From: Escherichia coli
GTDB taxonomy: Bacteria > Pseudomonadota > Gammaproteobacteria > Enterobacterales > Enterobacteriaceae
Assembly: GCF_003790525.1 (NCBI RefSeq)
Contig: NZ_CP033635.1
Direction: 5' to 3' (one strand)
Length of the DNA stretch: 64,000 nt
A program made the position numbers and the translations under genes. This document shows, in pieces, positions 15,555 through 15,580 of the stretch (positions are counted from its first letter, which is position 1; every line of letters starts with the position of its first letter). The notes under the pieces were generated by a model that saw nothing but the letters and a program-made list of their open reading frames with translations, ran no database searches and was not told where the DNA came from.

Positions 15555-15580
15555 GATCGAATCGATCGACAAAATCGATC
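15555..15580. promoter_or_regulatory. cluster of three GATC (Dam) sites within 26 bp upstream of hra
   Basis: ttcGATCgaatcGATCgacaaaatcGATC, about 90-115 bp upstream of the hra start codon. Confidence 0.4.

What the first reader, a model, noticed from the sequence alone, without database searches (positions are those of the whole stretch)
15555..15580. Three clustered Dam GATC sites upstream of the hra-like adhesin gene: possible methylation-dependent phase switch
Three GATC sites fall within 26 bp, roughly 90-115 bp upstream of the start codon of a surface adhesin gene. Clustered GATC sites in promoter regions underlie Dam-dependent phase variation of pap and agn43 in E. coli. The cluster lies between the adhesin gene and a decayed integrase, in horizontally acquired DNA.
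Basis: partly seen in the sequence, partly recalled or inferred. Interest (0 to 1): 0.5.

Follow-up and report, generated by a model that had tools for sequence, protein, structure and literature searches.

The report
Conserved Dam-site operator before adhesin gene
Three Dam methylation sites upstream of an Hra/Hek/Tia-type adhesin gene are the most strongly conserved part of its promoter and closely resemble the OxyR/Dam control sites of agn43 and phage Mu mom, so this widespread E. coli adhesin family is probably under an undescribed epigenetic switch, although this has not been tested experimentally.

Summary
**Observation: confirmed.** GATC sites lie at 15555, 15564 and 15577. They sit 92-117 nt upstream of the ATG (15463) of a 245-aa Hra/Hek/Tia-family outer-membrane protein, in a tRNA-Phe island.

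**Counting alone is unremarkable.** About 0.6 such triplets are expected per 64 kb, and the window holds three.

**Comparison shows a functional element:**
- Across 28 distinct promoter haplotypes (median identity 71%), the 26-nt GATC block is the most conserved stretch. Eleven of 12 GATC bases are invariant.
- A 32-nt core is identical in Yokenella upstream of an unrelated secreted-protein gene.
- A variant with the same 13+9 spacing precedes other cargo genes in E. coli, in the slot where agn43 sits in K-12.
- The core GATCGATTTTGTCGATCGAT matches the agn43 OxyR/Dam site at 17 of 20 positions.
- The 4-GATC allelic variant matches the Mu mom OxyR/Dam region at 27 of 37 positions, with the same spacing.

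**Position.** The block lies just upstream of the predicted -35, at about -74 to -49.

**Most likely function.** It is a Dam-sensitive operator, probably for OxyR, that gates the adhesin promoter. A Pap/Lrp-type switch is excluded.

**Untested:** methylation state, the binding protein, the direction of regulation, and bistability. I found no prior description.

**Verdict:** a new member of a known kind.

The parts
15549..15580 (-). Core operator. In gene orientation it reads GATCGATTTTGTCGATCGATTCGATCGAATTT and contains all three GATC sites.
   Evidence: This is the most conserved 26-nt window of the upstream region in 28 haplotypes. The 32 nt are identical in Yokenella regensburgei upstream of a different gene.
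15577..15580 (.). Promoter-distal GATC, at -117 from the ATG and about -74..-71 from the predicted transcription start.
   Evidence: It is invariant in all intact haplotypes.
15564..15567 (.). Middle GATC, 13 bp from the distal site (about -61..-58).
   Evidence: It is invariant in all haplotypes. The 13-bp pairing matches agn43 GATC-II/III, the gtr pairs and Mu mom GATC-2/3.
15555..15558 (.). Promoter-proximal GATC, 9 bp from the middle site (about -52..-49).
   Evidence: It is retained in 27 of 28 haplotypes and lost only in L014, which reads TTGATAAA.
15565..15579 (-). Dyad ATCGATTTTGTCGAT (ATC-N9-GAT). It is an OxyR-type half-site or LysR-type box centred near -66.
   Evidence: It matches the ATAGnTnnnAnCTAT consensus at 7 of 10 positions; 0.33% of window positions score that high. 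Alleles reading TTTTATCGAT or TTTTACCGAT score 8 of 10. The agn43 and gtr GATC-bearing half-sites also score 8 of 10.
15595..15606 (-). Conserved upstream box TTCGATAAGAAA, which starts 26 nt upstream of the distal GATC.
   Evidence: TTCGATAA is kept at the same distance in the hra, Yokenella and PEC408 cassettes. Its function is unknown.
15537..15542 (-). -35-like hexamer TTTACC.
   Evidence: This belongs to the only sigma-70-like site found by the scan. TTTTAC is conserved among haplotypes.
15513..15518 (-). -10-like hexamer TAAAAT. The predicted transcription start is near 15506.
   Evidence: A TA(A/G)AAT hexamer lies 35-36 nt downstream of the proximal GATC in all three gene contexts. The transcription start has not been mapped experimentally.
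15472..15475 (-). Shine-Dalgarno GGAG.
   Evidence: Read from the sequence. CGGAG is conserved across haplotypes.
14726..15463 (-). Hra/Hek/Tia-family outer-membrane adhesin/invasin gene (245 aa), the presumed regulated gene.

Best explanation
**What it is.** The three GATC sites form the core of a conserved operator immediately upstream of the -35 of the hra/hek/tia-type promoter, at about -74 to -49.

**Proposed mechanism.**
- A LysR-type regulator, most probably OxyR, binds the unmethylated dyad ATCGATTTTGTCGAT and the adjacent GATCG.
- Dam methylation of the GATC adenines blocks that binding.
- The bound protein in turn blocks Dam.
- After replication, each daughter copy therefore resolves into either a protein-bound, unmethylated state or a methylated, protein-free state.
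- The result is heritable ON and OFF subpopulations for the adhesin.

**Direction of regulation.** The direction is not determined. By position (-74..-38) the site resembles the repressing OxyR(BC) site of gtr and the repressing site of Mu mom. I therefore lean slightly (about 60:40) towards methylated = ON and OxyR-bound = OFF.

**Shown versus inferred.**
- Shown: the sites, their strong conservation, their fixed geometry relative to a conserved -10, their reuse upstream of unrelated genes, and their sequence resemblance to validated OxyR/Dam sites.
- Inferred: the transcription start, the binding protein, methylation sensitivity and bistability.
For: 1. **Phylogenetic footprint.** Among 28 distinct haplotypes anchored on the -10 region only, median pairwise identity is 71% and the minimum is 54%. 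The 26-nt GATC block has the lowest entropy of any 26-nt window. Within it 20 of 26 columns are invariant, against 38 of 142 elsewhere (Fisher p = 2e-6). Eleven of 12 GATC bases are invariant. The coding sequences have diverged to 58-66% amino-acid identity.
2. **GATC itself appears selected.**
   - The PEC408 variant changes the bases between and beside the sites (CGATTCGATCGAA becomes CGACCCGATCGGT) but keeps all three GATC and the 13+9 spacing.
   - The 9-bp insertion variant ATGATC(ACA/GCA/GTA) adds a fourth GATC that is itself invariant while its neighbouring bases vary.
3. **Reuse elsewhere.** The identical 32-nt core occurs in Yokenella upstream of a 154-aa secreted-protein gene. TTCGATAA, the -10 and the ribosome-binding site keep the same distances while the rest of the sequence has diverged. 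A related core occurs in lambdoid prophages.
4. **Resemblance to validated sites.**
   - It matches the agn43 GATC-II/III core at 17 of 20 positions, so 9 of the 12 non-GATC positions agree (binomial p about 4e-4 to 2e-3).
   - The 4-GATC allele matches the reverse complement of the Mu mom region at 27 of 37 positions with the same 13+18 spacing. Outside the GATC tetranucleotides 15 of 25 positions agree (p about 2e-4 to 9e-3).
   - The gtr OxyR half-sites carry the same 13-bp GATC pair.
5. **Consensus score is comparable to a validated site.** By the Toledano consensus the validated mom site scores only 13 of 20. Alleles of this element also score 13 of 20, and the window copy scores 12 of 20.
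6. **Geometry.** The sites lie between -49 and -74 of a weak promoter. In Mu mom they lie about -53 to -87.
7. **Precedent for the spacing.** The Salmonella std UAS has three GATC spaced 13+9 and is controlled by Dam and the LysR-type factor HdfR.
Against: - No methylation, binding or expression data exist for this locus.
- A canonical two-half-site OxyR tetramer site as in agn43 (16 of 20) or gtr (18 of 20) is not evident. The second half-site scores at most 5 of 10 and is not conserved between alleles.
- The haplotypes are phylogenetically related, so the Fisher test overstates independence.
- Palindromic CGATCG/ATCGAT motifs could be the recognition sequence of a regulator indifferent to methylation.
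- One natural allele (L014) lacks the proximal GATC.
- The transcription start is only predicted. In Yokenella and PEC408 no full sigma-70 match passes the scan.
- For Mu mom, whose site is the closest in geometry, it is not known whether expression phase-varies (PMC2909390).
Confidence: 0.5

Rival explanations
1. The block is a conserved operator for a transcription factor whose palindromic recognition sequence (ATCGAT/CGATCG) merely happens to contain GATC. The sites are always fully methylated and Dam has no regulatory role.
For: The conservation extends beyond the GATC tetranucleotides to GATCGATTTT..CGATCGAT. No convincing second OxyR half-site is present. One allele lacks the proximal GATC.
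Against: The PEC408 variant and the 9-bp insertion variant keep or add GATC while neighbouring bases change. The core matches two sites where methylation is known to control OxyR binding, agn43 and Mu mom. The N6-methyl groups lie in the major groove of the very bases that are conserved.
Confidence: 0.2
2. The block is Dam-sensitive but is not a heritable switch. Methylation, or SeqA binding to the hemimethylated cluster, only modulates promoter strength or couples it to replication. This would resemble dnaA or IS10, or possibly Mu mom, and would not produce stable ON and OFF lineages.
For: The distal and proximal GATC are 22 bp apart, about two helical turns, which suits SeqA (established knowledge). 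For Mu mom, phase variation has never been shown (PMC2909390). SeqA modulates std and agn43 (PMC6735912).
Against: The regulated products are surface adhesins or secreted proteins carried on islands, which is the class of genes typically under ON/OFF control. The element resembles agn43, a true switch. These arguments are indirect.
Confidence: 0.2
3. The cluster is a chance event that persists only because the alleles share recent ancestry.
For: About 0.6 such triplets are expected per 64 kb, and the window has two others in coding DNA.
Against: It is the most conserved segment among haplotypes that are 54-71% identical. It is identical in another genus where the flanks have diverged. The GATC spacing is kept in PEC408 despite substitutions in between.
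Confidence: 0.04
4. The adjacent palindromes form a hairpin followed by a T-run. This would act as an intrinsic terminator or insulator that shields the adhesin promoter from upstream transcription.
For: The scan reports terminator-like TCGATCGATTCGATCGA + ATTTTCTCTT here, and GTCGATCGACCCGATCGGT + TTTATTCATT in PEC408.
Against: The predicted RNA fold is -9.4 kcal/mol with z = -0.40, no better than shuffled sequence. The 9-bp insertion alleles and L014 fold differently and lack the T-run. Substitutions at the A6:T12 pair of the distal hairpin (A:C in MIN6-type alleles, G:T in L007) are not compensated. Any two neighbouring CGATCG palindromes will pair trivially.
Confidence: 0.04

Closest known systems
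agn43 (flu) regulatory region of E. coli: the Dam/OxyR phase switch
   Same: It has three GATC in a short stretch. GATC-II and GATC-III are 13 bp apart within an OxyR half-site. Its core GATCGTTTATATCGATCGAT is 17 of 20 identical to the window and 18 of 20 identical to the TTTTATCG alleles. It controls a self-associating surface adhesin carried on integrative islands. The PEC408 version of the element occupies the same slot, after the yeeP-like GTPase gene, that agn43 occupies in K-12 CP4-44.
   Different: In agn43 the other GATC lies 19 bp on the opposite side. A good second half-site exists (8+8 of 20 with a 17-nt spacer). The sites lie downstream of the promoter. Here they lie upstream of the predicted -35. 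BLAST detects no homology outside the core.
Phage Mu mom promoter region I (Dam/OxyR control)
   Same: [quoted passage not shown] The last GATC is 40 nt before the -10, compared with 35-36 nt here. One pair is spaced 13 bp. The reverse complement aligns with the 4-GATC hra allele at 27 of 37 positions with the same 13+18 spacing, and it shares the 12-mer TTACCGATCGAT. The consensus score is equally modest at 13 of 20. Dam and OxyR govern Pmom (PMC3378877).
   Different: The orientation relative to the promoter is inverted. The window allele has 13+9 spacing and matches at only 22 of 37 positions. mom needs the phage activator C. Phase variation of mom has not been shown.
Salmonella gtr (P22, LT2) and opvAB: Dam/OxyR switches with upstream sites
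   Same: GATC pairs 13 bp apart lie inside OxyR half-sites (GATCGGTAACAACGATC and GATCGCTTGTATCGATC) upstream of the promoter. These loci control surface properties and were horizontally acquired.
   Different: gtr has four GATC in two pairs plus a perfect GATC-free central half-site, spaced 32 bp apart (18 of 20). Alternative occupancy of the AB or BC sites gives ON or OFF. No such three-half-site layout is present here.
Salmonella std fimbrial UAS (Dam/HdfR/SeqA bistable switch)
   Same: It has three GATC in a 25-bp interval at -242, -229 and -220. The distal-to-proximal spacing is 13 then 9, exactly as here. A LysR-type activator binds there, methylation blocks it, and it controls an adhesin (PMC6735912).
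   Different: The std sites lie about 170 bp further from the transcription start. In std the 9-bp pair is essential and the distal site is dispensable, whereas here the 13-bp pair is the best conserved. The std sequence could not be obtained. The strict core was not found in the Salmonella representative genome.
pap-family Dam/Lrp/PapI switch
   Same: Dam-dependent control of an adhesin. One such region is present in this same window.
   Different: It requires two GATC 102 bp apart inside ACGATCTTTTA boxes between the papI and papB homologues, as seen at 34085 and 34187. None of these features is present at 15555-15580.

Membership tests
Dam/OxyR epigenetic operators (agn43, Mu mom, gtr, opvAB) | Two or more GATC sites inside the regulator-binding region of a promoter | tested here: met
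   Three GATC lie in 26 bp, 36 nt upstream of the predicted -10.
Dam/OxyR epigenetic operators (agn43, Mu mom, gtr, opvAB) | A GATC pair 13 bp apart framing a 15-bp OxyR half-site (ATAGnTnnnAnCTAT, with ATCG/CGAT ends) | tested here: met
   ATCGATTTTGTCGAT scores 7 of 10, and 8 of 10 in several alleles. The agn43 and gtr equivalents score 8 of 10 and mom scores 7 of 10. The core is 17 of 20 identical to agn43.
Dam/OxyR epigenetic operators (agn43, Mu mom, gtr, opvAB) | A second half-site 22 or 32 bp away, giving a tetramer site | tested here: inconclusive
   The best total is 12 of 20 in the window and 13 of 20 in alleles, against 16 of 20 for agn43 and 18 of 20 for gtr. The validated mom site also scores only 13 of 20. 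In background sequence, 0.13% of positions score 12 or more.
Dam/OxyR epigenetic operators (agn43, Mu mom, gtr, opvAB) | OxyR binds unmethylated but not methylated DNA and protects the GATC sites from Dam | not testable with these tools
   This needs gel-shift or footprinting assays, or in vivo methylation data.
Dam/OxyR epigenetic operators (agn43, Mu mom, gtr, opvAB) | Heritable, reversible ON/OFF expression that is lost in dam and oxyR mutants | not testable with these tools
   No expression data exist. No report was found in the literature held here.
Pap-type Dam/Lrp switch | Two GATC about 102 bp apart within Lrp sites, carrying ACGATCTTTTA GATC boxes | tested here: not met
   The spacings here are 9 and 13 bp and the flanks are CGATCGA. 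The true pap boxes in this window are at 34085 and 34187, 102 bp apart.
Pap-type Dam/Lrp switch | Adjacent papI/papB-type regulator genes | tested here: not met
   The neighbours are an integrase pseudogene and a WYL-domain regulator gene. papI and papB lie 18 kb away, next to a truncated papA.
std-type Dam/HdfR upstream activating sequence | Three GATC in about 25 bp, spaced 13 then 9 towards the promoter | tested here: met
   The sites are at -117, -104 and -95 from the ATG, against -242, -229 and -220 in std (PMC6735912).
std-type Dam/HdfR upstream activating sequence | Sequence similarity to the std UAS, and HdfR binding | not tested
   The std sequence was not obtainable: papers and supplements are not held. 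The strict core had no Salmonella hit among the species representatives.
Hra/Hek/Tia outer-membrane adhesin-invasin family (the downstream gene) | A beta-barrel outer-membrane protein of about 245 aa with a signal peptide, homologous to Tia/Hek/Hra1 | tested here: met
   It is 66% identical to RefSeq-annotated Tia, 58-62% identical to Hek-type proteins from UPEC islands, and 97.6% identical to the MIN6 allele. The locus is syntenic with the pEtN transferase and integrase remnant. NCBIfam gives only sub-threshold Adr/OmpW-like hits.

The most novel reading that the evidence does not exclude
The GATC block is a portable OxyR/Dam 'phase-variation cassette'. It consists of the operator, a weak promoter and a 5' leader, and it is related to the agn43 and Mu mom operators. 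It has been recruited repeatedly in front of unrelated cargo genes. These include the Hra/Hek/Tia adhesins (the promoter region matches in about 31% of complete E. coli genomes), small secreted proteins in the agn43 slot of CP4-44-like islands in E. coli and Yokenella, and a nin-region module of lambdoid prophages. Under this reading a single host regulator would impose epigenetic bistability on a whole class of mobile surface and secreted factors across Enterobacteriaceae.
Probability: 0.3. Interest if true: 0.7.

Novelty: new member of a known kind. Interest (0 to 1): 0.55.

Why it matters
**The genes are important and their regulation is undescribed.** Hra1, Hek and Tia are recognised adhesins, invasins and autoaggregation factors of EAEC, NMEC/UPEC, ETEC and STEC. 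They are used as virulence markers. The literature I could search describes essentially nothing about their regulation.

**The promoter is widespread.** This promoter region matches in 1683 of 5426 complete E. coli genomes, with up to four copies per genome.

**Consequences if the promoter is gated by Dam and OxyR:**
- Expression would be heterogeneous within clonal populations. That would help explain why hra1 deletion has little effect in vitro yet impairs colonisation (PMC5863034).
- It would bear on the use of these proteins as antigens.
- It would add a third E. coli chromosomal family, besides pap and agn43, to the list of Dam-dependent switches.

**A wider implication.** Finding the same operator upstream of unrelated cargo genes, in another genus and in prophages, suggests that epigenetic control modules themselves move horizontally.

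Tried and rejected
- **Counting statistics.** The triplet is not significant on its own.
- **Pap/Lrp-type switch.** Rejected on spacing, GATC-box sequence and absence of papI/papB.
- **Full OxyR tetramer site.** Scored with the Toledano consensus using 7-nt and 17-nt spacers. The window reaches only 11-12 of 20, so I do not claim a canonical site. The validated mom site scores 13 of 20, so a low score is not exclusion.
- **Terminator or hairpin.** The energy is no better than shuffled sequence, and the structure is not conserved.
- **Known RNA families.** None found.
- **Extended homology between the agn43 leader and this cassette.** None beyond the core.
- **Retrieving the Salmonella std UAS sequence to test the HdfR idea.** This failed. 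The papers and supplements are not held, and the strict core had no Salmonella hit.
- **Direct methylome evidence.** Neither the ST131 methylome paper and its supplement list nor the single-molecule methylome paper gives site lists for these loci. The O104:H4 methylome paper could not be retrieved under the id tried.
- **Literature searches.** I searched for hra/hek/tia together with Dam, GATC, OxyR or phase variation, and for the exact sequence. Nothing was found.
- **A co-located regulator gene.** None travels with the element. Its neighbours differ in every context, which argues for a host-encoded factor.

Full report
**1. The observation**

The + strand reads AAAATTCGATCGAATCGATCGACAAAATCGATCATG at 15549-15583. 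GATC occurs at 15555, 15564 and 15577.

The downstream gene is on the minus strand. RefSeq annotation of an identical chicken E. coli genome places the CDS at window 14726..15463. A GGAG lies 8 nt before that ATG.

The product is 245 aa with a signal peptide. It is 66% identical to annotated Tia, 58-62% identical to the Hek-type proteins of UPEC islands, and 97.6% identical to an allele in strain MIN6.

The surrounding DNA is an island next to tRNA-Phe/yqgA/speC. An integrase pseudogene lies at 15687..15871.

**2. Is it more than chance?**

By counting, no.
- With 228 GATC in 64 kb, random placement gives 0.63 triplets within 26 bp per window (P of at least one = 0.46).
- The window has three. 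The other two lie inside ISCR2 and glmM-fragment coding DNA next to sul2.
- GATC is not enriched overall.
- The local DNA is AT-rich and GATC-poor, which makes the cluster stand out. The real test is comparative.

**3. Comparative anatomy within E. coli**

The 177-nt upstream region matches in 1683 of 5426 complete E. coli genomes, with up to four places per genome and identities from 74% to 100%.

I aligned representatives of the divergent alleles. These lie upstream of tia, hek-type, subtilase-island and other family members.

To avoid bias towards GATC, I also sampled metagenomes with a pattern taken only from the -10 region. That gave 24 further distinct related sequences.

Combining the sets gave 28 distinct haplotypes, with these results:
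- Median pairwise identity is 71% and the minimum is 54%.
- The 26-nt GATC block is the lowest-entropy 26-nt window of the 188-nt upstream region.
- Within it 20 of 26 columns are invariant, against 38 of 142 outside (Fisher p = 2e-6; the sequences are related, so this is indicative only).
- Eleven of 12 GATC bases never vary.
- In gene orientation the sites sit at -117, -104 and -95 from the ATG. The spacing is 13 then 9.

Two kinds of natural variation are informative.
- One group of alleles lies next to a divergent hns-like gene. It carries a 9-bp insertion ATGATC(ACA/GCA/GTA) between the middle and proximal sites. The insertion adds a fourth GATC, which is itself invariant while the bases after it vary.
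- Only one allele (L014) has lost the proximal site.

Promoter variants and coding alleles also recombine independently. The window and MIN6 proteins are 97.6% identical, yet they carry the 3-GATC and 4-GATC promoters respectively. The homology break is at window 15543.

**4. The same element upstream of other genes and in other genera**

A scan of one genome per species with the invariant core GATCGRTTTTRYMGATCGAT gave 32 hits. Five were in Enterobacteriaceae, one of them an E. coli-like MAG carrying the hra locus itself.

*Yokenella regensburgei.*
- The 32 nt GATCGATTTTGTCGATCGATTCGATCGAATTT are identical to the window.
- They lie about 130 nt upstream of an unrelated 154-aa signal-peptide protein in a CP4-44/CP4-57-like island, followed by DUF932, antirestriction, RadC and CbeA genes.
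- The flanks have diverged. A TTCGATAA box 26-27 nt upstream, a TAAAAT hexamer 35 nt downstream, and CCAACGGAG before the ATG are all retained.

*E. coli PEC408 and eight other genomes.*
- The variant GATCGATTTTGTCGATCGACCCGATCGG keeps all three GATC and the 13+9 spacing although the intervening bases changed.
- It lies 35 nt before TAGAAT, upstream of two small secreted-protein genes.
- It sits directly after a yeeP-like GTPase gene. That is the slot occupied by the agn43 regulatory region in K-12 CP4-44.

*Lambdoid prophages.*
- A related form has a terminator, then CATGATCGATTTTAYCGATCGATA, and a third GATC 18 nt after the middle one.
- It recurs in lambdoid prophage nin regions of Buttiauxella, Kluyvera and several viral contigs.

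No regulator gene travels with the element. Its binding protein is therefore presumably encoded by the core genome.

**5. Promoter geometry**

The only sigma-70-like site in the intergenic region is TTTACC (15542-15537), an 18-nt spacer, then TAAAAT (15518-15513) on the gene strand.
- Both hexamers are conserved among alleles.
- A TA(A/G)AAT hexamer keeps a fixed distance of 35-36 nt from the proximal GATC in all three gene contexts.
- With a transcription start near 15506, the GATC sites lie at about -74, -61 and -52, and the dyad ATCGATTTTGTCGAT is centred near -66.
- The -35 is weak. In Yokenella and PEC408 it is too weak to pass the scan. That fits a factor-dependent promoter. The transcription start is inferred, not mapped.

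**6. Comparison with known Dam-dependent systems**

*agn43 (K-12 sequence).*
- GATC-II and GATC-III are 13 bp apart.
- GATCGTTTATATCGATCGAT is 17 of 20 identical to the window core. Nine of the 12 non-GATC positions agree (binomial p about 4e-4 to 2e-3).

*P22 gtr.*
- The OxyR(A) and OxyR(C) half-sites are GATCGGTAACAACGATC and GATCGCTTGTATCGATC. These are again 13-bp GATC pairs.

*Phage Mu mom.*
- The region reads ACGATCGAATCAATTAAATCGATCGGTAATACAGATCGATT. Its three GATC are spaced 18 then 13.
- The last GATC lies 40 nt before the -10.
- Dam and OxyR govern this promoter (PMC3378877; PMC2909390).
- Its reverse complement aligns in register with the 4-GATC hra allele at 27 of 37 positions with identical spacing. 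Outside the GATC tetranucleotides 15 of 25 positions agree (p about 2e-4 to 9e-3).
- It matches the prophage form at 26 of 37 positions and the window allele at 22 of 37.

*Salmonella std.*
- The UAS has three GATC at -242, -229 and -220. That is the same 13+9 spacing.
- It is controlled by Dam and the LysR-type factor HdfR (PMC6735912).
- I could not obtain its sequence.

*Consensus scoring against ATAGnTnnnAnCTAT.*
- The dyad scores 7 of 10, and 8 of 10 in several alleles. The background frequencies of such scores are 0.33% and 0.05%.
- The best two-half-site score is 12 of 20 for the window copy and 13 of 20 for the other alleles scored, against 16 for agn43 and 18 for gtr. The validated mom site also scores only 13.
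- A canonical tetramer site is therefore not demonstrated, but OxyR is not excluded.

*Pap-type.*
- The pap-type switch is excluded. A genuine papI-papB intergenic region in this same window has ACGATCTTTTA boxes at 34085 and 34187, 102 bp apart. It looks nothing like 15555-15580.

**7. Mechanism proposed**

The element is most likely a Dam-sensitive operator for a LysR-type regulator. OxyR is the leading candidate, and HdfR or another such factor are alternatives.

The proposed steps are:
- The protein binds unmethylated DNA.
- Methylation blocks binding, and binding blocks methylation.
- After replication, this competition yields two self-perpetuating states.

The sign of regulation cannot be inferred from position.
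- gtr(AB) and opvAB activate from upstream.
- gtr(BC), which covers -78..-32 much as this site would, represses. So does mom.
- I lean slightly towards repression by the bound protein, so that Dam would be needed for ON.

My sub-probabilities are:

| Claim | Probability |
|---|---|
| Real functional cis-element | about 0.9 |
| Dam methylation affects it | about 0.6-0.65 |
| Heritable ON/OFF switching | about 0.45 |
| OxyR is the partner, given Dam sensitivity | about 0.5 |

**8. Rivals**

- A methylation-indifferent operator cannot be excluded, and neither can a Dam- or SeqA-modulated promoter that does not switch.
- Chance is disfavoured by the conservation.
- The terminator-like hairpin reported by the scan is a trivial consequence of adjacent palindromes. 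It is energetically unremarkable (z = -0.40) and is not conserved in structure.
- No Rfam family matches.

**9. Novelty**

- Searches of the held literature found nothing. They combined hra1, hek or tia with Dam, GATC, OxyR or phase variation, and also used the exact sequence.
- A 2021 autoaggregation review names Ag43 as the textbook example of epigenetic control and does not link Hra1 to it. A 2026 epigenetics review gives agn43 and pap as the best-characterised E. coli examples of site-specific phase variation.
- From my own knowledge, I am also not aware of a description.
- The mechanism class is well known. This is therefore a new member of a known kind, with the added point that the operator behaves as a portable cassette.

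**10. Limits**

- All functional statements are inferences from sequence.
- The haplotypes are not phylogenetically independent.
- Similarities to agn43 and mom were found after the fact, by aligning on the GATC pair.
- The std comparison rests on published coordinates only.

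Noticed in passing
window 33980-34401 (GATC at 34085 and 34187): This is a canonical Pap-type Dam/Lrp switch region. Inverted ACGATCTTTTA boxes lie exactly 102 bp apart between a papB homologue (33665-33979, minus strand) and a papI homologue (34402-34680, plus strand). The adjacent papA is truncated, so the switch appears orphaned.
   Followed up: partly
window 35159-35178 and 35700-35722: Two further GATC triplets within 26 bp. By annotation transfer both lie inside coding DNA of an ISCR2 transposase fragment and a glmM fragment next to sul2. They serve as examples of chance clusters.
   Followed up: partly
window 15543 (breakpoint); L005 3445-3500: Outer-membrane protein alleles that are 97.6% identical carry different promoter variants: 3 GATC, or 4 GATC with the 9-bp insertion ATGATCACA. 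Homology breaks at 15543. The 4-GATC type lies next to a divergent hns-like gene instead of the integrase remnant. The promoter cassette and coding sequence therefore recombine independently.
   Followed up: partly
L001 2314-3000; L002; L006 (hek-type loci of UPEC-like strains): In hek loci the GATC cassette is separated from hek by about 690 bp. This stretch carries a small same-strand ORF of 89-122 aa with no family match. It is flanked by a duplicated GGAGATAA(C/T)TGA leader end, as if a gene had been inserted between the promoter cassette and hek.
   Followed up: partly
L168 852-918 (E. coli PEC408) and L043 4785-4816 (Yokenella regensburgei): The same operator with 13+9 spacing precedes small secreted-protein genes (133/155 aa and 154/120 aa; no family match). 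It lies directly after a yeeP-like GTPase gene and before DUF905/DUF932. That is the slot where agn43 sits in K-12 CP4-44. It occurs in only 9 of 5426 E. coli genomes.
   Followed up: yes
L173 3198-3235; L172 757-795; L177 241-280; L039; L045/L171: A related module recurs in lambdoid prophage nin regions, between a KilA/Ant-like gene and ninB. It consists of a rho-independent terminator, then CATGATCGATTTTAYCGATCGATA, then a third GATC 18 nt further on. It is followed by about 400-500 nt of non-coding DNA with GTGAC repeats. It matches the reverse complement of the Mu mom region at 26 of 37 positions. Its function is unknown.
   Followed up: partly
window 10664-14306 and 16094-19763: The adhesin gene is embedded among defence-like genes. 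These are a WYL-domain regulator (13410-14306), PADLOC candidates PDC-M09A (12282-13361) and PDC-M40B (10664-12235), an AAA ATPase with PDC-M55A/NsnB/AriA-like hits (16990-18612) overlapping a 313-aa ORF with no hit, and a type I restriction-modification system (hsdS at 18621-19763).
   Followed up: partly
L031 (NZ_JAFCGY010000142.1, 'Mesorhizobium caraganae', 454-bp contig, coverage 0.76): This contig carries the E. coli hek-type cassette sequence. It is almost certainly E. coli contamination in that assembly.
   Followed up: no
L003 about 3001-3065 (E. coli R13): The homology to the cassette breaks inside the distal GATC, beside an IS66-family element, and the copy has no adhesin gene. It is a decayed remnant.
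   Followed up: no
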